NCBI GenBank assembly: GCA_038230695.1
Contig: JBBRMT010000002.1
Location: forward strand, 1 to 60,915
Origin: Chloroflexia bacterium
GTDB taxonomy: Bacteria > Chloroflexota > Chloroflexia > QHBQ01
DNA: 60,915 nucleotides
Direction: 5' to 3'
Made by a program: the position numbers and the translations under genes. Below are positions 2,293 to 55,599 of this stretch, one piece after another; within the stretch, counting starts at the first letter, position 1, and the number at the start of each line of letters is the position of its first letter. Below the pieces are notes generated by a model that was not told where the DNA came from, did no database searches, and worked only from the letters and a program-made list of their open reading frames with translations.

Positions 2293-5094
<2,802 letters not shown>

Positions 5095-9902: not shown

Positions 9903-10508
9903 CTACTTTGGTCGCTTCATCTCGAATATCTCGTGTGTAGTGGAGTAGCTATCGCCCGCCATGCGTCCGATCGCGTCCAGCGTATGGGGGTTGACCCGCC
10001 CATTGTCGTACAAATCTTCGCGGATGCGGAACTGCACGATTTCGCCAATCACAATGCCCACCTGCTTAGGCGCGTTGCCAACCGTTACCACCTGGTGCAG
10101 AACGCACTCCAGGCTGGTCGGCGACTCGGCTACTCGCGGGGGCTTCACCTTGAGGCTGGGTACGGGGGTGAGGCCGGAGAGGTCGAACTCATCAATATCC
10201 GCCGCGTATTCGCCAGAGGTGAGGTTCATCCGTTCGCCCAGTTCATAGCTAACCGAGTTGACCACGAACTCGCCGGTATCAATGATATTGCGTAGGCTAT
10301 CCTTCGGTTCGCCATCACGGTAGATCATCGAGATGCAGAGCATCGGCGGATTCGAGCCAACCCCGGTGAAGAAGCTGAACGGCGCGAGGTTAAGCGTTCC
10401 GTCGCGGCTGATGGTGGAGACGAAAGCGATGGCACGGGGGACGATGATGCCAATCATCAGTCGGTAAGCATCGCGGGCGGGTAGGTCGCGGGCATCAAGG
10501 TCAATCAC
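9903..10508 (-). CDS. Flavin reductase-like FMN-binding protein
   Basis: AYRLMIGIIVPRAIAFVSTISRDGTLNLAPFSFF is the split-barrel flavin reductase motif. The GTG start overlaps the TGA of the upstream gene. Confidence 0.8.
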   Translation of the reverse strand: MIDLDARDLPARDAYRLMIGIIVPRAIAFVSTISRDGTLNLAPFSFFTGVGSNPPMLCISMIYRDGEPKDSLRNIIDTGEFVVNSVSYELGERMNLTSGEYAADIDEFDLSGLTPVPSLKVKPPRVAESPTSLECVLHQVVTVGNAPKQVGIVIGEIVQFRIREDLYDNGRVNPHTLDAIGRMAGDSYSTTHEIFEMKRPK

Positions 10509-41732: not shown

Positions 41733-43949
41733 CTACTTTTCGATGTCCACGAACAGCACTGAGTGCTGCAAGCCGTTGGCGTTGTCTTCGGTGATGCCCA
41801 TGCTGCGGAACGGCACCAGGAAGGGCTTGATATCCTTGTCGTAGGATGCGCTCAGGGATGCGCCCATGTTACTCGCCATCTTCTCGACCGCCTCGCGGAT
41901 GGCCTGGATGTTGACGTACATGACCGCACTGTTGTTGGTGATTGCATTCGTCATTGCGCCTTTGTAGTTGGCGCTATCGGTCACGCCACCCTTGCCGGAG
42001 GCGATTGCCTGCATCGTCGCGGTGTTGCTGGTAATGAAGAAGTAGTCGCCGACGATGCCGTAATAGACCGCGCTGCCCATGCTGCCGAACTTGAATATCT
42101 TGCTGCCTGCGACTTGCTGTTCGGTCACGGTGGGGGCATACTGGTCGGTGGGACTGGCGAGCTTGTTCTTGATTGCCGTGTTGATCTTCTGGATGCCGGC
42201 AGTGGCCTGGGCCTTGCTGTCCTTGACGTTGAGGACGAAGCCGCCCTGGGCTGGCGTGCTGGCATCTGCACCGGGCTGGATGTACATCCCCCACTCGCCA
42301 CCCATCCAACTCAACACATCGCTATCTAGGTCGAGGCCGGTGGCCTGCTTGAACTGCTGCTTTAGCTGGGTGGTGTTCATGCTGCCCATGTTCATGCTGC
42401 TAAAGTAGTTCATCTTGTCCAGGTAGGTCAGGCCATTGTTGATCAGATCCTTGAGGTTGGCGCTGGCGACGAAAGCCCAGGTGTCGGCGGGCATCAGCTT
42501 GACGATGCTGCGGTCGCTGATCAGCGGCATTGCGGAGGTAAGTGCGGCGGCGCTATCGCTAACGTTGCCAGCAGAATCAATCTGTACGCCGTTAGTCCGC
42601 GCTGTTACGCCGACAACCGAAACGCTGTTGCTGTTCTTCATCTGGTCGTAGATGCTCTTGCTCGAATTGAGGCTGCTCATTGACGGGCTATCCTTGGCCG
42701 CCTCGGTAAGCGCGGCGCTGACCGTGCCAGCAAACTTCGCGCTATCCATGTACAGGGTCATGCTGCGCTCGGTGGGTAGCTTGGTGAGGGCGGTGGTATA
42801 CTGCGCATTGCTGCTGAGGGATTTGCTGCCATCCTTGTAAGCGTCTATCACCGACTTGAGGCTGTCCTTGTTGCTGCTGAGGATGCCTTCCTTGCCGATA
42901 AGTACGCCATAGAAGGTGCTGGCGGAGCCGGTGGTGGTATCCAGATTGATCTTGTAGATGTCGCTGCCGTTGTAGGTCTCATCCTTGGTCAGGCTACCCT
43001 TGTTCTGATCGTTGGTCTTCTGCTGCAGCCGAGCGATGATGCTGTTGGGGTCTAGCGGGTTGACATCGAGTTCCACGACGGCAACCAGATGGTCCTCCAC
43101 CAGGTTGAAGGCTTCGCAGGTGGCCTGCTGGCTGTTCGCGCCGTTGTTGCTGGGGGCGGGGGGAAGAGACGAACCCGGCTTTGTTGTCGCTGGGCCGCCG
43201 AGCGTCATGGTATTCATAGTCGCGTCGCCCATCATGCCGCCGCTGCTGATTGCGTCCTTGACTACCTTCTGTACCTCAGCATCGCTGGGTTGCAGATAGG
43301 CAAGGGTGACATTGCCGCTGAGGAAGCCGCCGATATTGCTGATGATGCTGCCGCCGCTGCTGGCGCTGTTGGCTGTCTGGCTGCATTGGCCGACAAAGTT
43401 GGAGAGCATCATCGGGGCGAGGCCCGCCTGTGCGCCCAGCTGGTTGAGCTTGTCCTGCACGCCCGGCTGGCTGGTGAAGGCATCGTGGATCTTGGTCCAG
43501 TTAGCCTGCTGATCCTGGCCGGGGGTGGCGTTATAGCTTACGTAGGCCATGGTGGTGTTGGGCAACAACTTATCGTAGGCCACGCCTGCGATTAGCGGTT
43601 TGCCCACATTCTGCCAGAGGAAGTAGCCGCCGACCGCAAGCGCGGCAATCACAACAATCGCCACAATAAACGGCAGCGGGCCGCGCCCTTTGCGAACCGG
43701 CGCTACGGGTGGGGTTGGCGGTGCGCCATAGCCCTGCTGCGGATAGCGGGCAAACTCGTCGGGCGTGGCATACTGTGGTGGCGGTGGGGGCGGATAAGCC
43801 TGCGGCGGTGGTGGCGGGTAGCTGCCCTGCGGCGCATAAGCCTGCGGCGGATACTGCGGCTGAGGCTGATAGTTCTGTGGCGGGTAGCCTTGCCCCTGGT
43901 TGGGGTCAGGGTTGGCCGGATAGCCGCCGTTGCCGTAATCGTTAGACAT
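41733..43949 (-). CDS. Membrane-anchored protein with a Pro/Gln/Tyr-rich N-terminus and a large extracytoplasmic domain (DUF3352-like?)
   Basis: The start is set at MSNDYGNGGYPANP (ATG 43949). One TM helix (FIVAIVVIAALAVGGYFLW), then about 600 aa of Ser/Thr/Asn-rich domain. Confidence 0.6.
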   Translation of the reverse strand: MSNDYGNGGYPANPDPNQGQGYPPQNYQPQPQYPPQAYAPQGSYPPPPPQAYPPPPPPQYATPDEFARYPQQGYGAPPTPPVAPVRKGRGPLPFIVAIVVIAALAVGGYFLWQNVGKPLIAGVAYDKLLPNTTMAYVSYNATPGQDQQANWTKIHDAFTSQPGVQDKLNQLGAQAGLAPMMLSNFVGQCSQTANSASSGGSIISNIGGFLSGNVTLAYLQPSDAEVQKVVKDAISSGGMMGDATMNTMTLGGPATTKPGSSLPPAPSNNGANSQQATCEAFNLVEDHLVAVVELDVNPLDPNSIIARLQQKTNDQNKGSLTKDETYNGSDIYKINLDTTTGSASTFYGVLIGKEGILSSNKDSLKSVIDAYKDGSKSLSSNAQYTTALTKLPTERSMTLYMDSAKFAGTVSAALTEAAKDSPSMSSLNSSKSIYDQMKNSNSVSVVGVTARTNGVQIDSAGNVSDSAAALTSAMPLISDRSIVKLMPADTWAFVASANLKDLINNGLTYLDKMNYFSSMNMGSMNTTQLKQQFKQATGLDLDSDVLSWMGGEWGMYIQPGADASTPAQGGFVLNVKDSKAQATAGIQKINTAIKNKLASPTDQYAPTVTEQQVAGSKIFKFGSMGSAVYYGIVGDYFFITSNTATMQAIASGKGGVTDSANYKGAMTNAITNNSAVMYVNIQAIREAVEKMASNMGASLSASYDKDIKPFLVPFRSMGITEDNANGLQHSVLFVDIEK

Positions 43950-44230
43950 GGTGGAACAGTCCCCTTTCTTTCTCGATCCGCTTGAGCGCGTTAGTAGTTC
44001 TGCTAGATGGCGGATCTCTGCTGAAGTAACTGCCATGGTAAGCGCAAACAAAGCCTGCTTACAACTTCTAAATGTAATACGAATCCACAGCCTTGTTTGT
44101 TGCAATTAGTATACCACAATATGACGAAACTGCCGATACAGATCGGCTCATCTTTTATCAGCAAAGAGGTTAAGAATTGTTACACCACGCAATCGTGGGC
44201 GGCGCTGAAAAGTGCAGCGCCACGCAATAA

Positions 44231-46210: not shown

Positions 46211-47455
46211 GTGAGCAGAAGAGTGGTAGTGACGGGCATGGCGGCGATTACCTGCCTCGGCAACAATCTGCAAGAGACCTGGGCGGGGCTTAAGGCGGGG
46301 CGTAGCGGTATCGCCACCATCCAGAGCTTCGACTCCGCCGAGTTCAACCCCAACTTCGCCGGTGAGGTCAAGGGCTTCGACCCCGAAGCGACTGGCTACA
46401 TAGATGCCAAAGAGGCGAAGCAACTCGACCGCTACGTTACCTTCGCGATCACCGTGGCCGAGGACGCGCTGGCCGACTCTGGCCTGCAAATAACCGATGA
46501 TAACCGTGACAACATTGCGGTGATATTTGGTAGCGGCACGGGTGGCACTTCCACTCTGCTTGCCCAGCAGGCGGTGATGAATGAACGCGGCGCACGGCGG
46601 GTCAGCCCTTTCCTGATCGCCAATATGTTGCCGGACACTGGCAGCGGCTACATCGCCATCAAGCTAGGCGCACGCGGCCCCAACATGGCGGTGGTCTCCG
46701 CCTGCGCTACTGGCGGCCACAATGTCGGCGAGGCGTGGGAGACGATCCGGCGCGGCGATGCCGATGTGGCGGTCACGGGCAGCGCCGAGTACGTACTGAT
46801 GCCGCTCACCCTGGCTGGATTCATCTCGATGCGGGCGCTTGCCAACAACCCCGACCCCACCCGCGCCAGCCGCCCATTCGACAAGAACCGCAACGGATTT
46901 GTTATTGCCGAGGGTGCGGCCTGCCTGATTCTTGAGGAACTGGAACACGCGCAGGCCCGTGGCGCACATATCTACGCCGAGATGATCGGCTACGGTAGCA
47001 CCAACGATGCTTATCACATTGCCTCGCCCGACGACATGGGCGCAGGCGCGGCCCGCTGCATGAAGATGGCAATTCGCAAAGCGGGTATTGCCCCCGAAGA
47101 TGTAGACTATATCAACGCGCATGGAACCGCCACCCAGCTTAACGATCGGGTGGAGACGATTGCCACCAAGACGGTGTTCGGCGACCACGCCTACAAGCTG
47201 GCAATCAGCAGCATCAAGTCTATGATCGGCCACGCCATGGGCGCGGCGGGCAGCATAGAAGCGGTTGCCAGTGTGATGACCATCGTAGACCAGACGCTAC
47301 CCCCCACCATCAATTACGAAACCCCCGACCCCGACTGCGACCTCGATTACGTGCCAAACGTGGCCCGACCCGCCAAAGTAGACGTGGTGCTGTCCAACTC
47401 CATCGGCCTCGGTGGACATAATTCCTCGATTATCTTCCGCCGCTATCAGCCTTAA
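46211..47455 (+). CDS. fabF: Beta-ketoacyl-ACP synthase II
   Basis: RRVVVTGMA, active-site ACATG, NAHGTATQLND, and SIKSMIGHAMGAAG (Cys-His-His triad context). Confidence 0.9.
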   Translation: MSRRVVVTGMAAITCLGNNLQETWAGLKAGRSGIATIQSFDSAEFNPNFAGEVKGFDPEATGYIDAKEAKQLDRYVTFAITVAEDALADSGLQITDDNRDNIAVIFGSGTGGTSTLLAQQAVMNERGARRVSPFLIANMLPDTGSGYIAIKLGARGPNMAVVSACATGGHNVGEAWETIRRGDADVAVTGSAEYVLMPLTLAGFISMRALANNPDPTRASRPFDKNRNGFVIAEGAACLILEELEHAQARGAHIYAEMIGYGSTNDAYHIASPDDMGAGAARCMKMAIRKAGIAPEDVDYINAHGTATQLNDRVETIATKTVFGDHAYKLAISSIKSMIGHAMGAAGSIEAVASVMTIVDQTLPPTINYETPDPDCDLDYVPNVARPAKVDVVLSNSIGLGGHNSSIIFRRYQP

Positions 47456-47492: not shown

Positions 47493-47498
47493 TATAAT
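47493..47498 (+). promoter_or_regulatory. TATAAT box 6 nt upstream of ATG 47505 (leaderless-type arrangement)
   Basis: ggTATAATtatgtcATG, with no Shine-Dalgarno between the box and the ATG. Confidence 0.4.
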
Positions 47499-47504
47499 TA
47501 TGTC

Positions 47505-49025
47505 ATGTCCACCCCCACGCCTGAAGCGCAGATCGTCTTTTACCCGATTAGCGGGCCATTTTCATTGCCCGTGTTGTCGGTCAGCGCAGTAAGCGAATAT
47601 AGCGACATAGAGGTGGCAGTCAGCTATAGCGGGCCGCCCATATCGCTTGTCTATCTCTATGTTGGTGGCGCTTACTTCGATGGCCCGTTTGATCTGCAGG
47701 CTAATCCTCTACCCTTTCGCTTCCGGTACAATGTGGACGATTACGTTGGCGTGCTACGTTGGGAGTTGCGTCAGCAGGCGACCCCAATCGCTGCCGCCGA
47801 GCTTGCGGTGCAGCCGCGCAAGCTGAGTAACGCCGATGTTGCCTTCATCAAGGAGCGGCGCATACCTACGTTGCTGGCCCAGCTAGCCGCCCGCAACGCC
47901 ATCCGCTTGCGCTATGATGACGACTGCGAGCGTCTCTACCATTTCTACAGCCTCGATTACAGCATAGAGCGGCTGCTGCACTTCAGCGCCCGCTTGCTCG
48001 ACTCGACCGCTGGCGTGGCTTCGATCGCCGAGCGCATCTACAATCGCCTTGCCTACCACAGCGAAGCCGAGCAGTTGCACGCAGTTGGCGACATTCGCGG
48101 CGCGGTGCGTTGGGCAGCTACTACAACCCGTTGGGCCAACCGTCCCGCTGATGTGGGTCTCGCTCACGAGTGCCGCCGCGAGATAAAAGACTACGCCACC
48201 ACGCTGAACCTGATCCTGGTGACGCTGCACCGCAACCTGGCCCAACAACTTCACGCCCTCGCCCACCAGCTTGCCCGGCGCGACCCTCTAAGCCCAATTA
48301 TTGCTAAGATGCAAACATACGCCCATCGCCACGATGTCTGGCTGGAGCGTAGGCTACTTGCCGCGCTTGCTACATTGCCGCCACGCCCCATATCCCTGCA
48401 AGCGGCGGCCCGCGAACTGAGCTACAATACCAACCCTGCCTACCGCGAACTGCTGCGCCTTTGGCGCGACTTTCACACCCGCTATGTCAGCCTCGACCCC
48501 GCCGCCCATCTCTCCGGCCTGCAACCGATGCACAAGATCTACGAACTATGGTGCGTGTGCGAGGTGGCTGCGGCGCTGGGCTTGCGCGAGACCGCTAGCG
48601 GCTTCGGGCGTGGCGCAATCTTTGCGGGCCGCTATCAAGGCCAACCGACTACCTTGTACTACGACCAGCCAACCACCGCTGGCTGGCTGTCCAGCAGGCG
48701 CGGTGTGAATATTCGCCCCGACATCCTGCTGGAAGTGGGCGGCAGGCGGCTGCTGCTAGATGCCAAGTACCGCCTTGGTGACGAACGCGCCCGCACCGAT
48801 GACCTGCTCAAGATGCTTGCCTATATGAACGATCTGCGCGTGCCGGTTGGTGGTATCATCTATCCAGGTAGCGGTTCACTGGTAGCCCAGCCCGACCCAG
48901 CCAGCAATCAGGTGGCCTACGAACTGCCCCTCCGCCCCAACCTCGACGACCCTGCCGCCCTGACAACCACCCTGCGTGGCTGGCTTGATCAGATGATTGC
49001 GGCGGCGTTATGCAATCCGACGTAG
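47505..49025 (+). CDS. McrC-like PD-(D/E)xK nuclease of the DUF2357/DUF524 type
   Basis: C-terminal KIYELWCVCEV ... RPDILLEVGGRRLLLDAKYR ... DLLKMLAYMNDL...GGIIYPGSG (D ... D-A-K nuclease core at 48720-48767). The N-terminal ~380 aa is helical and unassigned. Confidence 0.7.
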   Translation: MSTPTPEAQIVFYPISGPFSLPVLSVSAVSEYSDIEVAVSYSGPPISLVYLYVGGAYFDGPFDLQANPLPFRFRYNVDDYVGVLRWELRQQATPIAAAELAVQPRKLSNADVAFIKERRIPTLLAQLAARNAIRLRYDDDCERLYHFYSLDYSIERLLHFSARLLDSTAGVASIAERIYNRLAYHSEAEQLHAVGDIRGAVRWAATTTRWANRPADVGLAHECRREIKDYATTLNLILVTLHRNLAQQLHALAHQLARRDPLSPIIAKMQTYAHRHDVWLERRLLAALATLPPRPISLQAAARELSYNTNPAYRELLRLWRDFHTRYVSLDPAAHLSGLQPMHKIYELWCVCEVAAALGLRETASGFGRGAIFAGRYQGQPTTLYYDQPTTAGWLSSRRGVNIRPDILLEVGGRRLLLDAKYRLGDERARTDDLLKMLAYMNDLRVPVGGIIYPGSGSLVAQPDPASNQVAYELPLRPNLDDPAALTTTLRGWLDQMIAAALCNPT

Positions 49026-49126
49026 GGGCGGGGGCTGCCCACTCAGGTGCAGCGCATCAATGCTCATCGTAAACATCAATGCCGACGTAGGGCGGGTGTT
49101 TCTCGCCCAATCTGGAGGTGACTATC

Positions 49127-51664
49127 ATGGCCGAAGCAACCGAGATACAACTGACCGAGCCGCAGCAGGAGCGACTGCGGGCGCTCTATCGCGCTTATCA
49201 GCAGGATCGCGCGTTTGTGGCCCGCTGGCAGGAGCTTGACGCAAAGCGCCAGGCGAGCATTCCGCAAATCCTGGGGATTATAAACGACTTTGTCGGTGGC
49301 AAAACAGACTTGAAACGGTTTGTTAAAGAAAGCCAGCAGTATAGCGTGAACAATAAGCAATGGGGATTTGCCCAGTACGGCCAAATGCAGTTGAACATTA
49401 TGAGCAACACCGCTGCTAAAGATGCTGAAGCAGCAACCCAGCTAACTCGCCTCCTTCGCTCGTCGTTGATCGTTCCCTCCTCGAAAGAAGAAAGCGCGGA
49501 GAAGATTAAGAAGCTAGCCAGCTTCCTGTCAAACCTTTATCAGAACTATAAGCCGAAAGCTGCTCACGACTCGTCTGTACCGCTTATCCTGAGCTACTTT
49601 TGGGGGATGCAGGACCAAGAAGAGTTTCCTGTATATTATAACCACGATGCGGCAGCCTATCGTCGGCTCGGACTAACAGAGCTAGCTGGCGGCCCAGGTG
49701 ATCGCTATACTGGCTATGATAGCCTTGTGACAAGGCTGCGCCATCTTTTGGATGCCAGCACCTGGGAGCTAGAGCATTTCGCTTTCTGGCTCTCCAAACA
49801 GCCCTTCCTTGGCTTCCCCACTGAAACCTTTGCCCGCCTCGTCGTTAATGCCGCATTCAACGCCGATTTTATCAGCGGGCGTGGCTATGCCGATGCCTCG
49901 CACGAAGATGAGGCTGAGGCTAACGCGAAGTTCGCCATAGACCGGCTCAAGGAGTTGGGCGGGCCGTTGCGGCAAGAGCTTGGCTACGAGACTTACGAGC
50001 TTGAACTAACCATCAAGCCGAGCGAACCCCGCGCCACCCACGGCGAACCGATGCGCTGGCGGCAGGAGGCTTGGCTGTCGGTTTGGCAGCCACAGAAGCA
50101 GAGTCGGGTGGCAGCGGCGGCCAGCCCGCAGCTACAGGTGCGGGTCAGCGGCGACGGCCTCTACGCAGGCTACTACTCCGGGCAGTCTGCTGCCTTCGCA
50201 CCAGCGGGACAGTGGCAGGCGGGGGTGGTGCGCGATGCGCTAGATGCTGCGTTGCGGCTGCCGGGGGTTGCCATCTATGCGCTGCGGCGCGGCGAGAACC
50301 CCACGCCAATCAGCCCCGACGAGGCCGCCAACCTCGACGGCGATGCCGCCTTCCTGGTTGGCCTGCGCTGGCCGCCCGAAGATCCAATAGTTGGCCTACC
50401 CCATGTGGTTGGCGCATTGGCCGAGACGCTGCGCGCCCTCTACCCCCTATACCAGACCGCGTTGGCAGCATACTCCCGCGCCGCTGCATTGGTGCCGCTG
50501 GCCGAGGTAGAGCAGGCCGAGGACCAGTTTGACGCGCTCTACAGCGAGACCGCGATTGGCGAACCTGCCGCCGATTATATGGTTGCCGCACTGCTGGATG
50601 ATGAGGCAATTGCCGAGGATCTAGCGGATGCCGAAGACGAGGATGGAGGCGCGGAGTTTGTGCCGCCCAACTTCGACGACATTCTTGCCGAGGTGAATCA
50701 GACGCTGGCGATTGACGAAGCCACCATTCGCGCCGTCATCACCCACCTGTATGCCGGGCGACACGTGCTGCTCTACGGTCCGCCTGGGGTGGGTAAGACG
50801 CGCCTAGCCCGCATCCTGGCGGCCACCATTTGCGGCAAGGACAACTACAGCATCAGCACCGCCAACCCGGAGTGGAGTGCGTATGAGGTAGTGGGCGGAC
50901 TGCGCCCGCGCATCGCCGCGTCTGGGTTGGCCTACGAGTATGCTGCTGGCGTGGTCAGCCGCGCCGTGGAACACTGTTGGTTGGGGCTGAAGCGTTATGG
51001 CCGACCCCACTATCTAATCATTGATGAGTTCAATCGCGCCAACCTGGACCGCGCCTTTGGCGAACTGTTCACCGCGCTGGAATATCCCGATGTGCCACTG
51101 CTATCAAAGGAGCGCGGCGCAAACGTGGACTTGCGTATCCCGCCCGCTTTCCGCATAATTGGCACGCTCAACTCAGACGACCGCAACACGCTCTACGATA
51201 TCGGTTTTGCCCTGCGCCGCCGCTTTGCGCTGGTGGAGGTGGGCATCCCGCCGCTGGCGCAGGAACGGGCCAAGCTGCCAGCAGCGGTGCAGGAGGCGCT
51301 GCGCCGCCGCGCCGCCAGCGCGGAAATTGCGCTCGATGAGGCGAATAACTTTGCCGACGCGCATCTGCAGTCGGCGCTTGACCCGCTGCTAGCCTTCATC
51401 GGGGTGGTGCGTAGTGTTCGACCGATTGGCACCGCGCTGCTGATAGACGCGCTGGCCTTCGTCGCCGCCGCGCATCTCAATGGCACCTATGCTGACCCCA
51501 TTGCTGCGCTGCAAGATGCGATTATCGCCACTATCCTGCCCCAGCTTGAGCGCAACCCCATCGCGATCGCTACCGCGATTGACCGTGCCGCCGAGTACAA
51601 CTTGTCTAGTGTGCTTAATGCCTTGCGCCGAATGCAAGAGGCCGACACAGCGGCGATGATATGA
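49127..51664 (+). CDS. McrB-family AAA+ GTPase with a ~550-aa unassigned N-terminal region
   Basis: Walker A GPPGVGKT (50777-50800), LIIDEFNRANLDRAFGELFTALE (51014-), GTLNSDDR with the NxxD motif (51170-51181), and FALRRRFALVEV. ATG 49127 is 9 nt after GGAGG. Confidence 0.8.
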   Translation: MAEATEIQLTEPQQERLRALYRAYQQDRAFVARWQELDAKRQASIPQILGIINDFVGGKTDLKRFVKESQQYSVNNKQWGFAQYGQMQLNIMSNTAAKDAEAATQLTRLLRSSLIVPSSKEESAEKIKKLASFLSNLYQNYKPKAAHDSSVPLILSYFWGMQDQEEFPVYYNHDAAAYRRLGLTELAGGPGDRYTGYDSLVTRLRHLLDASTWELEHFAFWLSKQPFLGFPTETFARLVVNAAFNADFISGRGYADASHEDEAEANAKFAIDRLKELGGPLRQELGYETYELELTIKPSEPRATHGEPMRWRQEAWLSVWQPQKQSRVAAAASPQLQVRVSGDGLYAGYYSGQSAAFAPAGQWQAGVVRDALDAALRLPGVAIYALRRGENPTPISPDEAANLDGDAAFLVGLRWPPEDPIVGLPHVVGALAETLRALYPLYQTALAAYSRAAALVPLAEVEQAEDQFDALYSETAIGEPAADYMVAALLDDEAIAEDLADAEDEDGGAEFVPPNFDDILAEVNQTLAIDEATIRAVITHLYAGRHVLLYGPPGVGKTRLARILAATICGKDNYSISTANPEWSAYEVVGGLRPRIAASGLAYEYAAGVVSRAVEHCWLGLKRYGRPHYLIIDEFNRANLDRAFGELFTALEYPDVPLLSKERGANVDLRIPPAFRIIGTLNSDDRNTLYDIGFALRRRFALVEVGIPPLAQERAKLPAAVQEALRRRAASAEIALDEANNFADAHLQSALDPLLAFIGVVRSVRPIGTALLIDALAFVAAAHLNGTYADPIAALQDAIIATILPQLERNPIAIATAIDRAAEYNLSSVLNALRRMQEADTAAMI

Positions 51665-51779: not shown

Positions 51780-52136
51780 ATGTTCTCACTTACATCAGAC
51801 TTCATCACCTCGAAGCAGGTACGCCAGAATCTGGCCGAGACGCTGGATCGGGTGGAGGAGGGTAAGCCCATCGTGATCACCCGCGCTGGTTTGCCCGCCG
51901 CCGTGTTGGTTAGCGTCGAACAGTATGAGCAACTGCAGCGAGCTTGGGAGGCACAATATCACATTATGATGGCCGATGCTGCCCAGGAGCGGGCCAACCG
52001 AGGCGAGGTGATCAGCGGCGAAGCATTCATCGCCGAACTTAAAGCCAACTTTGGCGGCAACATTGATTTCGAGACTGCAGATCTCTCCGAGTACGTAGAT
52101 ATGGATAACTCCGCTCTTGCCGAGGAGGGAGCATAG
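51780..52136 (+). CDS. Phd/YefM-family antitoxin
   Basis: ITSKQVRQNLAETLDRVEEGKPIVITRAGLPAAVLVSVEQYEQL. Confidence 0.75.
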   Translation: MFSLTSDFITSKQVRQNLAETLDRVEEGKPIVITRAGLPAAVLVSVEQYEQLQRAWEAQYHIMMADAAQERANRGEVISGEAFIAELKANFGGNIDFETADLSEYVDMDNSALAEEGA

Positions 52137-52138
52137 CT

Positions 52139-52495
52139 TTGGCAAAGCTGCTGATCGATCCTCTGGTGCGTATTGAAGCAAATGAAGTAGTCAGCTACTA
52201 TCGCAGCAAAGAGGGGGATGAGTTTGCTGAACACCTCAGCGTGGCGCTTCAGGCAGTCACCTTTGTGATAGGGAAAAATCCCGAAGGCGGCTTGCCTATC
52301 AGCGGCCTACCCTTGGGCTATCGTCGGAAACGCACAGGCAAGCACTTTCCACCGTATGTCTTCAGCTACCGCTACGATCGGGAGAAGGACGAGGCTCTTG
52401 TCTACCTGCTACGACACACTGCTCAACGGCCTTACGCACCTTCCACTCATCGCCGCAAGGCAAACGAAGCCCAACGTCGCGTTGATGAAGGCTGA
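52139..52495 (+). CDS. ParE/RelE-family toxin
   Basis: 118 aa, starting 3 nt after the antitoxin stop. EANEVVSYY........H.....A...I..NP..G and ..YVFSYRYD...DEALVYLLRHTAQRP are ParE-like. Confidence 0.65.
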   Translation: MAKLLIDPLVRIEANEVVSYYRSKEGDEFAEHLSVALQAVTFVIGKNPEGGLPISGLPLGYRRKRTGKHFPPYVFSYRYDREKDEALVYLLRHTAQRPYAPSTHRRKANEAQRRVDEG

Positions 52496-52597: not shown

Positions 52598-53860
52598 ATG
52601 GACCACCGTAACCACAGCAAGATCCGCGTCGTCGTCACCGGGCAGGGGCTACTCAGCCCGATTGGTAACACCATCGAGGAATACTGGCAGAACCTTACCA
52701 ACGGCGTGTCTGGCATTGGCCGCATCACCCAGTTCGACCCCGATGGCATGGCGGTGCAGATTGCGGGCGAGGTCAAGGGCTTTGAGCCGGGCGATTATAT
52801 GGACGAGAAGGCGGCGCGGCGAATGTCGCGCTTCGGTCAGTTCGCGGTAGCAGCGGCCCGTATGGCGTTGGACGATGCCCGCTTCACCATCACCGAGGAC
52901 AACGCCTCCAGCGTAGCGGTGGTGGTCGGCACCGGCGGTGGTGGCATTGGCGATGTCGCCGACGGCGGTATCAACCTGAAGGAACGCGGGCCGCGCAGTA
53001 TCAGCCCCTTCTTCCTGCCCAGCTTCATCGCCAACATGGGCGCGTGCCAGGTTTCCATCCAGTGCGGCGCACGCGGCCCGGTGCTGACCAATGTGGCCGC
53101 CTGCGCCACGGGAATACTCAGCTTTGGCGACGCGCTGCGCCTGCTGCGGGCTGGCGAGGCCGATGTCGCTATCTGCGGCAGCGCGGAGAGCGCCATCCAC
53201 CCGCTGTCGTTCGCATCGTTGAACAATATGGGTGCGTTGTGCAAGACGCGCAACGACGACCCCACCCACGCCAGCCGCCCCTTCGACAAGAACCGTGAGG
53301 GCTTCGTCTACTCCGAGGGTGCGGGGATAATGATTTTGGAGACACTGGAACACGCGATGGCCCGTGATGCCCGCATCATCGCCGAACTGGTTGGCGCGGC
53401 GGCCACCGGCGATGCTTATCACATCAGCGCCCCCGCTCCCAATGGGGTTGGCGCAAGCAACGCGATGAGCCGCGCCCTTATCAATGCGGGACTAACTCCG
53501 CAAGATGTGGATTATGTGGTCGCGCACGGCACTGGCACGCAGCTAAACGATGTTAGCGAGACGGCGGCGATCAAGACCAGCTTCGGCGAACACGCCTACA
53601 AGCTGATGATTAGTTCGCCCAAGAGTATGGTGGGCCACCTGCTGGGGGCAGCCGGGGCGATGAGCGGCGCGGCGGCGGTGATGTCCATCCGCGACGGCAT
53701 TGTGCCGCCCACTACCAACCTCGATACCCCCGACCCAGAGTGCGACCTCGACTATGTGCCAAACGTTAAGCGCGAGACGCAGGTGCGGGTGGCAATGGCG
53801 AACGGTTTCGGCTTCGGTGGGCAGAACGGCGTGGCAATATTCAAGGCGTTCGAGGCGTGA
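52598..53860 (+). CDS. Beta-ketoacyl-ACP synthase II paralog
   Basis: IRVVVTGQG, ACATG, AHGTGTQLND, and SPKSMVGHLLGAAG. GGAGGGAG lies upstream, with TACAAT at about 52525. Confidence 0.9.
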   Translation: MDHRNHSKIRVVVTGQGLLSPIGNTIEEYWQNLTNGVSGIGRITQFDPDGMAVQIAGEVKGFEPGDYMDEKAARRMSRFGQFAVAAARMALDDARFTITEDNASSVAVVVGTGGGGIGDVADGGINLKERGPRSISPFFLPSFIANMGACQVSIQCGARGPVLTNVAACATGILSFGDALRLLRAGEADVAICGSAESAIHPLSFASLNNMGALCKTRNDDPTHASRPFDKNREGFVYSEGAGIMILETLEHAMARDARIIAELVGAAATGDAYHISAPAPNGVGASNAMSRALINAGLTPQDVDYVVAHGTGTQLNDVSETAAIKTSFGEHAYKLMISSPKSMVGHLLGAAGAMSGAAAVMSIRDGIVPPTTNLDTPDPECDLDYVPNVKRETQVRVAMANGFGFGGQNGVAIFKAFEA

Positions 53861-53963: not shown

Positions 53964-53995
53964 ATCTGCAATCTGCAATCTGCAATCTGCAATGG
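53964..53995. repeat. Heptanucleotide tandem repeat (ATCTGCA x4)
   Basis: atctgcaatctgcaatctgcaatctgcaatgg. The last unit contains the ATG of the GNAT-Sir2 ORF. Confidence 0.9.
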
Positions 53996-55599
53996 AGATA
54001 AACTTCGCCAGCGACGCGGAACTCGCCGAAGCCTACTGGCGCAACATGGTGGCGATGTGGCGCACCGACCAGCACAGCGAGGATGCGCGGGGCGCATTCG
54101 CGGTTGTTGACGATGGCGTATTCCTGCGTATCTACAGCCACCTGCCCCAGTTCTGGCGGCACCAGGCGTTGCTGGTCAACGACACGTTGAGAGAATCGGA
54201 GTACATCACCGCGGTGGCTGCGCTAGTGGCCGATTTTCAGGGGCGTAGCGCCCCGCTGGGTGTGGCGGTTGGCCCCGGTGGGGAGCCGCGAGCGAACAAT
54301 GCGTTGGCGTTGCAAGGCTTTCGCCGCCGCAGCCTGGGCCTGGCGATGGGCCGCGACCTCGACCCCGCCGACTTGCCCACCAACCCCACGCCGCCAGGTT
54401 TGGTGGTAAGCCGCACCAGCGAATATATCGAACTGGCCGTCGCCCGCGCCATTATCAGCGAGGTGTTCGATACGCCGCTGCTGATACGCAACTATCTGGT
54501 TGACGATCTTCCTTATGCCCCCTATATTGCAGAATTGGACGGTGTGGCTGTCGCCGCCGCGACCATGGTGCCGAGCGATGGCATTGCTGGTATCTACAGC
54601 GTTGCCACCCTGCCGCCCTATCGTGGGCGCGGCATTGCCACCGCGATGCTGGATAAGATCATAACCGACGCGACCACGATGGGCCTGCGCGTCGCCGTCC
54701 TCGGCTGCTTCCCGCTGATGGTGCGCCATTATCAGCGCAGCGGCTTTCGCGTGGTCGGCACCCCGGTTGGCTACCTGATGGAAGTGTTACGCCTCATGTT
54801 CGACCCTGCCGATGATTGCACCCTGATAGACGTGATAGAGCGGCTGGCCGCAATGGTTAAGGCTGCCCGCCGCGTAGTAATGCTCACCGGCGCGGGAATA
54901 AGCACAGAATCGGGCATCCCTGACTTTCGCAGCCCAGGTGGGCTGTGGGATACCTACCGCCCCATTCACTATGTTGACTATATGCGTAAACCAGCGGTGC
55001 GCTCTGAGTTTTGGAGCCGCAGCCATGTCACTGTCCCCCTTTTTGCCAATGCCCAGCCCAATGCCGCTCACTATGCCGTTGCCGCAATGCAGCAAGCGGG
55101 CCAGATTGACGCGCTAATCACTCAGAACGTGGATGGTTTGCATCAGCGGGCTGGCTCACCCGATGTGCTGGAGCTACACGGCAGTTACCTGTGGGTGCGC
55201 TGCACCATCTGCTCGATGCGCTGCACCCGCATAGAGGTCCATCAGCGCATGGCGTTGCTTAACTCGGCAGCAGAAATTGCCGCTGGCACCCCCGCTGTAC
55301 CGAACTGCACGGCCTGTGGTGGCCTGCTCAAGCCCGATGTGGTTTTCTTCGGCGAGAATGTGCCTGCCGATATTACCAATGCAGCAATCAGCATTGCCCA
55401 GTCTGCCGATTTGTTCCTGGTAGTCGGATCGTCGCTGGCGGTTTACTCCGGTTATCGCCTGCCGCTACGGGCAATTGAAGCTGGAGCGCACCTGGCGCTG
55501 GTTAATCTCGGCCCCACCCGCATTGATAACCGCGCCGATCTGCTGCTACGCTGCCGCGCAGGCGTGGCCCTTCCCCTAGTGGCGGCGCGGGTTTGCTGA
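53992..55599 (+). CDS. GNAT acetyltransferase - Sir2 (sirtuin) NAD-dependent deacetylase fusion
   Basis: aa 1-260: GNAT motif A VATLPPYRGRGIATAML. aa ~285-535: LTGAGISTESGIPDFRSPGGLWD, ITQNVDGLHQRAG, ELHGS (His codon 55177-55179), CTIC..CTACGG zinc ribbon, KPDVVFFGE, and VVGSSL. There is no stop between the halves. Confidence 0.85.
   Translation: MEINFASDAELAEAYWRNMVAMWRTDQHSEDARGAFAVVDDGVFLRIYSHLPQFWRHQALLVNDTLRESEYITAVAALVADFQGRSAPLGVAVGPGGEPRANNALALQGFRRRSLGLAMGRDLDPADLPTNPTPPGLVVSRTSEYIELAVARAIISEVFDTPLLIRNYLVDDLPYAPYIAELDGVAVAAATMVPSDGIAGIYSVATLPPYRGRGIATAMLDKIITDATTMGLRVAVLGCFPLMVRHYQRSGFRVVGTPVGYLMEVLRLMFDPADDCTLIDVIERLAAMVKAARRVVMLTGAGISTESGIPDFRSPGGLWDTYRPIHYVDYMRKPAVRSEFWSRSHVTVPLFANAQPNAAHYAVAAMQQAGQIDALITQNVDGLHQRAGSPDVLELHGSYLWVRCTICSMRCTRIEVHQRMALLNSAAEIAAGTPAVPNCTACGGLLKPDVVFFGENVPADITNAAISIAQSADLFLVVGSSLAVYSGYRLPLRAIEAGAHLALVNLGPTRIDNRADLLLRCRAGVALPLVAARVC

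What the first reader, a model, noticed from the sequence alone, without database searches (positions are those of the whole stretch)
47505..51664. McrBC-like nuclease/GTPase pair with reversed gene order and a large unassigned N-terminal module
Seen in sequence: the first ORF (about 506 aa from ATG 47505) ends in a PD-(D/E)xK core (RPDILLEVGGRRLLLDAKYR, 48720-48767). That core is preceded by KIYELWCVCEV and followed by LKMLAYMNDL..GGIIYPG. This is the layout of DUF2357/DUF524-type McrC-like nucleases. The second ORF (845 aa from ATG 49127) carries the McrB hallmarks: GPPGVGKT, IIDEFNRANLDRAFGELF, GTLNSDDR (NxxD GTP-specificity motif) and ALRRRF. These motifs occupy only aa ~554-730. The preceding ~550 aa, which in McrB-family proteins normally forms the target-recognition module, contains nothing I can assign. 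It ends in an acidic linker (EDLADAEDEDGGAEF). The order nuclease then GTPase is the reverse of E. coli mcrB-mcrC. The ~100-bp spacer between the genes holds two GTAGGG(G)CG hairpin repeats (49022-49042, 49087-49108). By inference this is a type IV-like, modification-dependent or other nucleic-acid-sensing defence pair with a new sensor domain.
Basis: partly seen in the sequence, partly recalled or inferred. Interest (0 to 1): 0.75.

Follow-up and report, generated by a model that had tools for sequence, protein, structure and literature searches.

The report
McrBC-type restriction pair, swappable sensor
This is a divergent McrBC-type DNA restriction gene pair from a Chloroflexia bacterium; its motor protein carries an uncatalogued sensor-like domain, also found on other restriction nucleases, whose core differs sharply between close relatives.

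Summary
Two co-directional ORFs (47505-49025, 506 aa; 49127-51664, 845 aa) carry the motifs described.

- **ORF2** has a McrB-type AAA+ GTPase core of the NxxD clade. Its best PDB and NCBIfam matches are E. coli and Thermococcus McrB.
- **ORF1** is a divergent McrC. It has a PD-DxK triad (D406/D419/K421), its predicted fold matches McrC best, and one homologue weakly hits PF10117. It is not a demonstrable DUF2357/DUF524 member.
- **The "unassigned" 550 aa** split into two domains absent from Pfam, NCBIfam and the PDB.
  - Domain A (aa ~10-225) is widespread, with at least 284 clusters at 50% identity. It is fused to McrB GTPases and to FokI-like, Mrr and GmrSD/HNH nucleases. That is the fusion pattern of a restriction specificity module.
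  - Domain B (aa 227-470) was seen only after domain A or at the N-terminus, mostly upstream of McrB-type AAA+ cores.
- **Domain A core (aa 41-205)** is a low-GC cassette. It is 34-48% identical between relatives whose flanks are 85-95% identical.
- **Context:** the pair sits at a fixed chromosomal site after fabF in Chloroflexia, not in a defence island. Several relatives keep the nuclease alone.

Verdict: a new variant of a known kind, of moderate interest.

The parts
47493..47498 (+). TATAAT hexamer 6 nt upstream of the nuclease ATG. It is a candidate -10 box of a leaderless transcript; there is no Shine-Dalgarno sequence.
   Evidence: Read directly. The arrangement TATAAT, 5-6 nt, ATG is conserved in L005, L001 and L012 while the surrounding upstream DNA differs. 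The sigma-70 scan found no matching -35 hexamer.
47505..49025 (+). McrC-like nuclease gene (506 aa).
   Evidence: ORF. Nine homologues, with D406, D419 and K421 invariant. AlphaFold2 model with pLDDT 74. The best Foldseek matches in the PDB are McrC chains 6ut7_G, 6hz4_M, 7vsr_M and 6ut6_G, with probability 1.0.
47526..47813 (+). N-terminal Ig-like beta-sandwich of the nuclease (aa 8-103).
   Evidence: Eight strands with pLDDT about 80-89. Secondary Foldseek hits are Ig-like domains.
47829..48575 (+). Helical middle region of the nuclease (aa 109-357). It sits in the position of the McrC N-terminal (DUF2357-type) helical bundle.
   Evidence: Foldseek alignments to McrC span 300-470 columns. 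It is the most conserved part of the protein between the window and L005 (83% identity).
48615..49013 (+). PD-(D/E)xK nuclease domain (aa 371-503). Catalytic residues are D406 (48720-48722), D419 (48759-48761) and K421 (48765-48767).
   Evidence: Invariant columns. hhalign to E. coli McrC aligns RPDILLEVGGRRLLLDAKY..GGIIYP with TDITIRSSEKILIVDAKY..GGLLIYP. Weak PDDEXK_7 hit.
49026..49126 (+). Intergenic spacer. It holds two GACGTAGGG(G)CGG(G) repeats (49019-49031 and 49084-49096), a GGGCG/CGCCC stem (49090-49108) and the GGAGG ribosome-binding site (49114-49118).
   Evidence: Folding is not above chance. No Rfam match.
49127..51664 (+). McrB-like GTPase gene (845 aa), with architecture A-B-linker-AAA+.
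49154..49801 (+). Domain A (aa ~10-225). It is predicted to be all-helical, belongs to an uncurated family, and is the putative target-recognition module.
   Evidence: 284 clusters at E<=1e-3 in the exhaustive search. No Pfam, NCBIfam or PDB match and no similarity to the E. coli McrB N-terminus. Fused to McrB-type AAA+, FokI_cleav_dom, Mrr_cat and GmrSD_N+HNH.
49247..49741 (+). Hypervariable low-GC cassette inside domain A (aa 41-205).
   Evidence: 34-48% identity to relatives against 85-95% in the flanks, in three allele types. For the whole of domain A (aa 1-226), dS is 1.69 against 0.47 in domain B. Over aa 41-205, GC/GC3 is 0.50/0.56 against about 0.63/0.73, with the same dip in L019 and L020.
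49805..50536 (+). Domain B (aa 227-470). It is predicted alpha/beta and is highly conserved. In the proteins seen here it follows domain A or lies at the N-terminus, mostly upstream of a McrB-type AAA+ core.
   Evidence: 95% identity to L019 with dN/dS 0.048. Found in about 18 A-B-AAA+ representatives and in the A-less GTPase of the L001 clade. No Pfam or PDB match, and not similar to E. coli McrB.
50537..50668 (+). Variable acidic linker (aa 471-514).
   Evidence: 64% identity to L019. pLDDT below 35.
50669..51661 (+). McrB-type AAA+ GTPase core and C-terminal helical lid (aa 515-845). Motifs: Walker A 50777-50800, Walker B D633/E634 at 51023-51028, NxxD N682-D685 at 51170-51181, RRRF 51215-51226.
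   Evidence: AAA_5 4.4e-19. NCBIfam McrB model 2.1e-15. PDB 6hz4/6ut6 at 1.6e-16 and 6ut3 at 4.8e-14, with motif-by-motif alignment.

Best explanation
The two genes encode a McrBC-type, GTP-dependent restriction complex with the genes in the order C then B.

Shown:
- ORF2 has a complete McrB-type AAA+ GTPase core of the NxxD clade.
- ORF1 has the McrC fold with an intact PD-DxK site.
- Both genes are under purifying selection.
- They sit 101 nt apart on the same strand. ORF2 has its own ribosome-binding site. ORF1 is preceded by a conserved TATAAT that would give a leaderless mRNA.

Inferred from the established E. coli and Thermococcus McrBC mechanism:
- The GTPase forms GTP-bound hexamers.
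- The N-terminal part of the McrC-like protein inserts into the ring and stimulates GTP hydrolysis.
- Translocating complexes bring the PD-DxK domains onto DNA, which is then cut.

Inferred for target choice:
- The N-terminal module of the GTPase chooses the target.
- Domain A is the specificity reader. It is a portable module attached in other organisms to FokI-like, Mrr, GmrSD/HNH and McrB effectors.
- Its core (aa 41-205) has been replaced between close relatives by low-GC alleles, as happens with specificity domains of restriction systems.
- The highly conserved domain B is a constant adaptor or general nucleic-acid-binding part.
- The most likely target is foreign DNA carrying a base modification or another feature absent from host DNA. 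No methyltransferase is encoded next to the pair.
For: McrB core:
- AAA_5 4.4e-19.
- NCBIfam McrB model 2.1e-15 over profile positions 172-355.
- The best PDB sequence hits are E. coli McrB (1.6e-16) and T. gammatolerans McrB (4.8e-14), with Walker A, Walker B, NxxD-R and RRRF aligned.
- All these motifs are invariant in 5 homologues.

McrC:
- The top four Foldseek hits are McrC chains, E 1.6e-6 to 8e-5, probability 1.0.
- The catalytic core aligns with E. coli McrC.
- D406, D419 and K421 are invariant.
- Homologue P0014 carries a weak PF10117 hit.
- The nuclease profile built here detects the McrC genes downstream of related McrB genes in more than 25 metagenome loci.

Domain A as a specificity module:
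- At least 284 clusters.
- Fusions to McrB-type AAA+ (at least 36 of 149 representatives), FokI_cleav_dom (4e-8), Mrr_cat (1e-28 to 1e-31; PADLOC mREase_IV 1e-42 to 1e-46) and GmrSD_N+HNH.
- A-B-McrB genes are followed by canonical PF10117 McrC (5.5e-44 and 6.3e-56), or preceded by HsdM-HsdS.

Cassette behaviour:
- Identity drops to 34-48% between flanks that are 85-95% identical, in three allele types.
- dS for domain A (aa 1-226) is 1.69, against 0.47 in domain B.
- GC3 over aa 41-205 is 0.40-0.56, against 0.72-0.76 elsewhere.

Selection and gene content:
- dN/dS is 0.05-0.31 per domain.
- Both genes evolve faster than neighbouring housekeeping genes: GTPase 82% and nuclease 74% identity, against fabF and fabF2 at 95-96%.
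- The GTPase is present in some close relatives and absent in others. This is typical of defence genes.
Against: - No biochemical or phenotypic data exist for any member.
- The GTPase structure prediction failed (pLDDT 46.5), so the folds of domains A and B are unknown and DNA binding is not shown.
- The locus is not in a defence island. Neighbours are fab genes, a GNAT-Sir2 protein, transporters and a toxin-antitoxin pair. The position after fabF is conserved down to 51% protein identity, which looks like vertical inheritance.
- Relatives L005/L006 and L008 keep an intact nuclease without the GTPase. Seven more distant Chloroflexia loci have the nuclease alone among unrelated genes. Canonical McrC is inactive without McrB.
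- The L001 and L012 clade GTPases lack domain A altogether, so domain A is not essential to the pair.
- The window nuclease itself does not reach any Pfam McrC threshold.
Confidence: 0.62

Rival explanations
1. Domesticated McrBC. The pair, or at least the nuclease, has been recruited to a host function such as DNA repair, chromosome maintenance or cell-cycle control, rather than defence against foreign DNA. A precedent is the McrB-family protein PcdA in Staphylococcus aureus cell division.
For: - The chromosomal position directly after fabF is conserved across lineages with 51-74% nuclease identity.
- No methyltransferases, integrases or known defence genes lie within about 10 kb, apart from toxin-antitoxin modules.
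- The nuclease family is confined to Chloroflexia in 185,579 species genomes (10 loci), and it is often solo among housekeeping genes.
- The precedent was found in the paper search (PMC10602043; only title and abstract were read).
Against: - The nuclease catalytic triad and all GTPase motifs are intact.
- Both genes evolve several times faster than their neighbours.
- The GTPase is gained or lost between genomes whose fabF is 95% identical.
- The sensor cassette is replaced by foreign low-GC alleles. This fits an arms race and not a fixed housekeeping ligand.
- Wider A-B-McrB relatives sit with Type I R-M genes and canonical McrC.
Confidence: 0.13
2. The nuclease is an autonomous enzyme and the GTPase is an optional accessory. 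The McrC-like protein, with its extra Ig-like domain, recognises and cuts its target alone. Where present, the GTPase only adds a second, sensor-guided mode.
For: - Intact full-length nuclease genes with conserved D/D/K occur without any McrB-like gene within the fetched flanks (up to 10 kb each side) in L005/L006, L008, L007 and L013-L018.
- The nuclease has its own conserved promoter-like TATAAT.
- It has an N-terminal Ig-like domain that the shorter E. coli McrC (348 aa) has no room for.
Against: - These are metagenome-assembled genomes, so a partner GTPase could be encoded elsewhere.
- In the characterised systems McrC neither binds DNA nor cuts without McrB (established knowledge; PMC6344862 abstract).
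- The helical region that corresponds to the McrB-activating part of McrC is the best conserved part of the protein (83% identity).
Confidence: 0.15
3. The system senses something other than modified DNA. Candidates are RNA, as proposed for CoCoNuT McrBC relatives, or a phage protein. Domain A would then be a ligand or protein sensor that licenses the nuclease.
For: - Domain A is predicted all-helical in a low-confidence model.
- It resembles none of the known DNA-modification readers in Pfam, such as DUF3578/ADAM, EVE/YTH/PUA, SRA or winged helix.
- Cassette-type diversification is also typical of protein-sensing immune receptors.
Against: - The GTPase has the NxxD motif of DNA-targeting McrB, not the NxD of CoCoNuTs (PMC11090510).
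- There are no HEPN, cold-shock-domain or other RNA-linked domains.
- All fusion partners of domain A are DNA endonuclease modules of restriction enzymes.
- The McrC-like nuclease is catalytically intact.
Confidence: 0.1

Closest known systems
EcoKMcrBC (E. coli K-12 McrB/McrC) and Thermococcus gammatolerans McrBC
   Same: - Two-gene system made of an AAA+ GTPase with Walker A, Walker B, NxxD-R and RRRF motifs, plus a partner with a helical N-terminal part and a C-terminal PD-DxK nuclease.
- They are the best sequence matches for ORF2 and the best fold matches for ORF1.
- No cognate methyltransferase is present.
   Different: - The gene order is C then B, with a 101-nt spacer. In E. coli the order is B then C and the stop and start codons overlap by one base.
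- The GTPase N-terminus is domains A and B (about 470 aa), not DUF3578/ADAM or YTH-like.
- The nuclease is 506 aa, with an extra Ig-like domain, against 348 aa in E. coli.
- It scores below all curated McrB and McrC family cut-offs.
Uncharacterised A-B-McrB plus PF10117 McrC systems in metagenomes (L023, L024, L025; proteins P0017, P0018, P0058, P0082 and others)
   Same: The GTPase has the same A-B-AAA+ architecture. These are McrBC loci, and one lies next to Type I R-M hsdM-hsdS.
   Different: - They have the B then C order, with a canonical McrC that passes the Pfam threshold (5.5e-44 and 6.3e-56).
- Some carry a further reader-like insert between domain B and the AAA+ core. The middle part of P0018 matches the N-terminal part of PADLOC PDC-S02.
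- They share only 23-32% overall identity with the window protein family.
Single-chain restriction nucleases carrying domain A (A + FokI-like cleavage domain, A + Mrr_cat, A + GmrSD_N/HNH)
   Same: They share the N-terminal domain A with the window GTPase (E 1e-8 to 1e-22). They have the 'reader plus effector' build of Type IV or modification-dependent enzymes. The screening logic is described in PMC6765204.
   Different: The effector is a fused nuclease, not a GTPase plus a separate McrC. They have no domain B.
CoCoNuT (coiled-coil nuclease tandem) McrBC relatives
   Same: They are McrB-like GTPases with a long helical N-terminal extension. Some of their McrC homologues have Ig-like domains (PMC11090510).
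   Different: - CoCoNuT GTPases have NxD; this one has NxxD (N682-S-D-D685).
- CoCoNuT McrC homologues often lack an active nuclease; here it is intact.
- There are no cold-shock-domain, HEPN, Hsp70-like or helicase partners.

Membership tests
McrB-type AAA+ GTPase (COG1401 / AAA_5 McrB clade) | Walker A GxxGxGK[ST] and Walker B hhhhDE | tested here: met
   GPPGVGKT at aa 551-558 and LIIDEF at aa 630-635. Both are invariant in 5 homologues and align with E. coli McrB.
McrB-type AAA+ GTPase (COG1401 / AAA_5 McrB clade) | NxxD signature motif followed by R, and the downstream arginine cluster | tested here: met
   IIGTLNSDDRN aligns with IIGLMNTADRS, and ALRRRF aligns with ALRRRF of E. coli McrB. 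N682, D685, R686 and R697-699 are invariant.
McrB-type AAA+ GTPase (COG1401 / AAA_5 McrB clade) | Significant match to curated McrB or AAA_5 models | tested here: met
   AAA_5 scores 69.3 bits against a cut-off of 22. The NCBIfam McrB equivalog model is the best hit (2.1e-15), but at 56 bits against a cut-off of 637. ORF2 is a family member, not an equivalog of EcoKMcrB.
McrB-type AAA+ GTPase (COG1401 / AAA_5 McrB clade) | GTP-specific hydrolysis, hexamer formation and stimulation by McrC | not testable with these tools
   This needs biochemistry.
McrC (PF10117 McrBC / DUF2357 + PD-(D/E)xK) | C-terminal PD-(D/E)xK catalytic triad of the McrC type (D...D-x-K) | tested here: met
   D406, D419 and K421 are invariant in 9 homologues. 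hhalign aligns them with the TD...DAK core of E. coli McrC.
McrC (PF10117 McrBC / DUF2357 + PD-(D/E)xK) | Match to curated McrC models (PF10117, PF09823/DUF2357) | tested here: not met
   The window protein has no hit at E<=1. Only the 35%-identical homologue P0014 has a weak PF10117 hit.
McrC (PF10117 McrBC / DUF2357 + PD-(D/E)xK) | Overall McrC fold (N-terminal part, helical bundle and nuclease) | tested here: met
   The top four Foldseek hits are McrC chains from two organisms, over 300-470 aligned columns with probability 1.0. TM-scores are low (0.26-0.41) because of domain placement and the extra Ig-like domain. The model has pLDDT 74.
McrC (PF10117 McrBC / DUF2357 + PD-(D/E)xK) | Encoded next to a McrB GTPase in one operon | tested here: inconclusive
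   Met in the window, in the L001-L004 and L011 clade and in L012. Not met in L005/L006, L008, L007 or L013-L018.
   15.8 bits against a cut-off of 22.1, E 0.016, over aa 372-430 only.
CoCoNuT systems | NxD variant of the GTPase signature | tested here: not met
   The motif is N-S-D-D, which is NxxD. The definition comes from PMC11090510.
CoCoNuT systems | Extensive coiled coil in the GTPase N-terminus, and RNA-linked accessory domains | tested here: inconclusive
   No dedicated coiled-coil predictor was available. The low-confidence model shows one long helix at aa 11-56. No cold-shock-domain, HEPN or Hsp70-like domains occur in the pair or its neighbours.
[quoted passage not shown] | A specificity domain that binds modified DNA | not testable with these tools
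   Only indirect evidence exists: the fusion pattern of domain A and its cassette-like variation.
[quoted passage not shown] | No cognate methyltransferase in the locus | tested here: met
   No methyltransferase lies within about 10 kb in the window, or in L001, L019 and L020.

The most novel reading that the evidence does not exclude
Domain A is a previously undescribed family of nucleic-acid (probably DNA-modification) reader domains. It is traded as a module among McrB GTPases and FokI-like, Mrr and GmrSD/HNH nucleases in bacteria and archaea.

In this Chloroflexia lineage its core is exchanged as a low-GC cassette inside a chromosomally fixed McrC-McrB locus. This would retarget a vertically inherited restriction system without moving the system itself.

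A bolder add-on is that the Chloroflexia-specific McrC-like nuclease can work without a McrB partner.
Probability: 0.4. Interest if true: 0.65.

Novelty: new variant of a known kind. Interest (0 to 1): 0.48.

Why it matters
McrBC systems are abundant and well catalogued. A further McrBC-like pair is therefore not surprising in itself.

What this locus adds is a concrete, testable candidate for a new reader domain:
- It is a roughly 200-aa helical module.
- It is absent from Pfam, NCBIfam, PADLOC and the PDB.
- It is attached to four different classes of restriction effectors.
- It behaves here like an exchangeable specificity cassette.

New readers of modified DNA have practical value as epigenetic tools. 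They also show which phage DNA modifications exist in poorly studied phyla such as Chloroflexota.

The locus also offers natural experiments on how far McrC depends on McrB and on which N-terminal part sets specificity. Relatives exist with the nuclease alone, with B-AAA+ and with A-B-AAA+.

Tried and rejected
- **GTPase structure.** AlphaFold2 on the full GTPase with its 5-sequence alignment gave pLDDT 46.5.
- **Word-index search.** The search with domain A alone returned nothing. The exhaustive search had found 284 clusters, so this is a sensitivity limit and not evidence of absence.
- **PDB profile searches.** Domains A and B gave only chance-level hits: Pin1-type isomerase at 0.029 and a glycosidase at 0.16.
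- **Pfam scans.** Scanning every member of the A and B alignments gave no shared family.
- **DUF3578/ADAM idea.** I suspected domain B might be a divergent DUF3578/ADAM-like domain. hhalign against E. coli McrB gave probability 0.04, so this was rejected.
- **Metagenome scans with A3 and A4.** The full-length alignment A6 worked but returned mostly generic McrB loci.
- **Spacer hairpins.** They were considered as a terminator, attenuator, structured RNA or dispersed repeat. The evidence does not support any of these: no T-run terminator, no Rfam hit, folding z-score 0.27, and the 13-mer is not enriched in the window.
- **Phage origin of domain A.** No match was found in 50,697 phage records.
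- **Missing domain A in the L001 clade.** No separate gene near the pair encodes it.

Full report
**1. Observation**

The window has two co-directional ORFs on the + strand. The first runs from ATG 47505 to the stop at 49025 (506 aa). The second runs from ATG 49127 to 51664 (845 aa).

- RPDILLEVGGRRLLLDAKYR is aa 404-423 of ORF1. D406 is at 48720-48722, D419 at 48759-48761 and K421 at 48765-48767.
- In ORF2, GPPGVGKT is aa 551-558, IIDEFNRANLDRAFGELF is aa 631-648, GTLNSDDR is aa 679-686 and ALRRRF is aa 695-700.
- The acidic linker is aa 497-511.

The 101-nt spacer holds two GACGTAGGG(G)CGG(G) copies, and a GGGCG/CGCCC stem lies directly before a GGAGG ribosome-binding site. The spacer is conserved in the closest relative (L019), and the stem is kept in L020. 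It is not more stable than shuffled sequence (z = 0.27). It has no Rfam match and is not terminator-like.

**2. The GTPase core**

ORF2 matches AAA_5 at 4.4e-19. Its best NCBIfam hit is the McrB model at 2.1e-15, far below the equivalog cut-off. Its best PDB sequence hits are E. coli McrB (6hz4, 6ut6 and 7vsr, about 2e-16) and Thermococcus gammatolerans McrB (6ut3, 4.8e-14).

Walker A, Walker B, the NxxD-R signature and the RRRF arginines align residue for residue. All are invariant in the five family members found.

The signature is NxxD (N-S-D-D). This places the protein with DNA-targeting McrB proteins, not with the NxD CoCoNuT branch defined in PMC11090510.

**3. The nuclease**

ORF1 reaches no curated threshold. 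It has only a sub-threshold PDDEXK_7 hit (15.8 against 22.1 bits), nothing in PADLOC or NCBIfam, and no PDB sequence match.

Nine homologues were found. D406, D419 and K421 are invariant, and one 35%-identical member carries a weak PF10117 (McrBC) hit.

An AlphaFold2 model (pLDDT 74) shows three parts:
- an Ig-like beta-sandwich, aa 8-103;
- a helical region, aa 109-357;
- a PD-DxK domain, aa 371-503.

Its four best Foldseek matches in the PDB are McrC chains of T. gammatolerans and E. coli. E-values run from 1.6e-6 to 8e-5, probability is 1.0, and 300-470 columns are aligned. A profile of the family aligns its catalytic core with that of E. coli McrC.

ORF1 is therefore a divergent McrC homologue with an added N-terminal Ig-like domain.

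**4. The "unassigned" N-terminus of the GTPase**

An exhaustive HMMER search with aa 1-515 found 284 representative clusters at E<=1e-3. Local dissection splits the region into two domains.

*Domain A (aa ~10-225).*
- It is present in 148 of the 149 listed representatives.
- It has no match in Pfam, NCBIfam or PADLOC, or in the PDB by profile. It shows no similarity to the DUF3578/ADAM domain of E. coli McrB.
- Its fusion partners are informative:
  - McrB-type AAA+ cores, in at least 36 representatives;
  - a family of about 29 clusters of 415-470 aa whose tails match the FokI cleavage domain (4e-8);
  - Mrr_cat nucleases (1e-28 to 1e-31; PADLOC mREase_IV 1e-42 to 1e-46);
  - a GmrSD_N+HNH protein;
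  - a further PD-(D/E)xK group that matches a PADLOC Type II REase model.
- It also occurs in a haloarchaeal plasmid, as an A-AAA+ gene followed by a McrC-like ORF.
- It was not found in 50,697 phage records.
- A portable N-terminal module on several unrelated restriction effectors is the hallmark of specificity (reader) domains of Type IV and modification-dependent enzymes. This principle is used in PMC6765204. It is an inference, not a demonstration.

*Domain B (aa 227-470).*
- It is shared by about 18 representatives, and always follows domain A.
- It also has no match in Pfam or the PDB, and none to E. coli McrB.

*A-B-McrB genes in metagenomes.*
- In two fetched loci the gene is followed by a canonical McrC (PF10117, 5.5e-44 and 6.3e-56).
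- In a third it is preceded by hsdM-hsdS.
- The A-B-McrB architecture therefore belongs to bona fide McrBC systems with the usual B then C order.

**5. Cassette behaviour of domain A**

Within the window's own family (68-82% overall identity), aa 1-40 and aa 206-845 are 75-95% identical. By contrast, aa 41-205 drop to 34-48%. Three allele types exist: the window, P0002/P0003, and P0004/P0005.

Comparison with L019, whose fabF2 is 96% identical:

| Region | Identity | dS | dN/dS |
|---|---|---|---|
| Domain A (aa 1-226) | 59% | 1.69 | 0.20 |
| Domain B (aa 227-470) | 95% | 0.47 | 0.05 |
| AAA+ core (aa 515-845) | 92% | 0.65 | 0.08 |

The cassette (aa 41-205) has GC/GC3 of 0.50/0.56, against about 0.63/0.73 for the rest of the gene. 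The same dip occurs in the L019 and L020 alleles.

The simplest reading is repeated replacement of the domain A core by recombination with lower-GC donors. This is the behaviour of restriction specificity determinants.

**6. Genomic setting and distribution**

The family is rare and confined to Chloroflexia.
- There are five GTPase and nine nuclease clusters among 5.8 billion proteins.
- Ten loci were found in 185,579 species genomes, all Chloroflexia or Chloroflexota metagenome-assembled genomes.

The gene order in the window and its relatives is as follows.

| Locus | Gene order |
|---|---|
| Window | fabG-fabD-fabF-nuclease-GTPase-PhdYefM-partner-fabF2-GNAT/Sir2 |
| L019, L020 | Same downstream synteny as the window |
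| L001-L004, L011, L012 (about 51% identity) | fabG-fabF-120 aa-nuclease-GTPase; the GTPase starts at domain B and lacks domain A |
| L005/L006 (fabF 95% identical) | fabF-(another toxin-antitoxin pair)-nuclease-nuoG, with no GTPase |
| L008 | No GTPase |
| L007, L013-L018 (35-40% identity) | Nuclease alone among unrelated housekeeping genes; no McrB-like ORF in the fetched flanks (up to 10 kb each side) |

Other neighbours in the window are housekeeping genes. The pair is therefore not in a defence island and looks vertically inherited. It nevertheless evolves faster than its neighbours, and its content varies between close relatives.

**7. Expression signals**

A TATAAT hexamer (47493-47498) lies 6 nt before the nuclease ATG, and there is no Shine-Dalgarno sequence. 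The same TATAAT, 5-6 nt, ATG arrangement is kept in L005, L001 and L012, although the rest of the upstream DNA differs. This suggests a leaderless transcript and supports ATG 47505 as the true start. The consensus scan found no -35 partner. The GTPase gene has a canonical GGAGG eight nucleotides before its ATG.

**8. Mechanism proposed**

By analogy with EcoKMcrBC and the Thermococcus enzyme, the ORF2 protein forms GTP-bound hexamers. The ORF1 protein engages the ring and stimulates hydrolysis, and its PD-DxK domain cuts DNA after translocation.

Target choice is assigned to the N-terminal module.

The enzymatic identities of both proteins are shown by sequence and fold. Complex formation, GTP dependence, DNA as the target and the role of domain A are inferred.

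**9. Rivals**

- **Domestication for a host function.** It is supported by the fixed position, the Chloroflexia restriction and the solo nucleases. It is weakened by fast evolution, presence/absence variation and cassette exchange.
- **An autonomous nuclease with an optional GTPase.** It is supported by the solo loci.
- **A non-DNA or protein sensor.** It is not excluded because the fold of domain A is unknown. It is disfavoured by the NxxD clade and by the exclusively DNA-nuclease partners of domain A.

**10. Verdict**

The pair is a divergent McrBC-type system and a new variant of a known kind.

The truly new element is not the pair itself. It is the uncurated, widely distributed domain A and its cassette-like replacement.
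- McrBC diversity, including variable N-terminal specificity modules, is already well documented (PMC11090510).
- The A-B-McrB architecture recurs elsewhere.
- No defence-island context supports the locus.

Noticed in passing
window 47493-47507; L005 about 4285-4300; L001 about 9995-10010: A TATAAT hexamer lies 5-6 nt before the nuclease ATG, with no Shine-Dalgarno sequence. It is conserved in orthologous loci whose other upstream DNA differs. It is probably the -10 box of a leaderless mRNA.
   Followed up: partly
window 51780-52136 and 52139-52495: A PhdYefM antitoxin (5.5e-16) and a 118-aa partner with no Pfam match lie directly downstream of the GTPase gene. The pair is conserved in L019 (93% and 90% identity) and partly in L020. 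L005 instead has a DUF4258 gene plus a 99-aa gene on the opposite strand, between fabF and the nuclease.
   Followed up: partly
window 46211-47455 and 52598-53860: Two fabF (ketoacyl-ACP synthase II) paralogues, about 49% identical, flank the nuclease-GTPase-TA block. Relatives that lack the GTPase (L005) go from the nuclease straight into nuoG instead.
   Followed up: partly
window 53992-55599: A 535-aa fusion of a GNAT acetyltransferase domain (aa about 170-255) and a Sir2 deacetylase domain (aa 300-486). It is conserved in L019 (91% identity).
   Followed up: no
L001 11452-11605 (also L002-L004): The nuclease ORF of the 51%-identical clade runs about 150 nt past the end of homology as a Pro/Ser/Thr/Ala-rich tail. 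It overlaps the start of the GTPase gene, which there begins at domain B and lacks domain A.
   Followed up: partly
L007, L013-L018: Solo McrC-like nuclease genes (35-40% identical) occur in other Chloroflexia metagenome-assembled genomes, among unrelated housekeeping genes such as LPG synthase, valS, protoglobin and an amino-acid kinase. No McrB-like ORF lies in the fetched flanks (up to 10 kb each side; less in L007, L014, L015 and L017).
   Followed up: partly
protein P0018 aa 451-582 (representative library): A long A-B-x-AAA+ relative carries, between domain B and the AAA+ core, a segment that matches the N-terminal (non-nuclease) part of the PADLOC candidate system PDC-S02. This suggests stacked reader modules.
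   Followed up: no
L103 (Natronosalvus halobius plasmid NZ_CP099998.1, record 164638-167588): A haloarchaeal A-AAA+ gene annotated as 'AAA family ATPase' has an annotated start that lies 108 nt inside the domain A match. It is followed by a 447-aa hypothetical protein with a weak match to the nuclease profile.
   Followed up: partly
window 41733-44105 (- strand): A 790-aa DUF3352 protein has a Pro/Gln/Tyr-rich low-complexity N-terminus followed by a transmembrane-like segment. It is unrelated to the finding.
   Followed up: no
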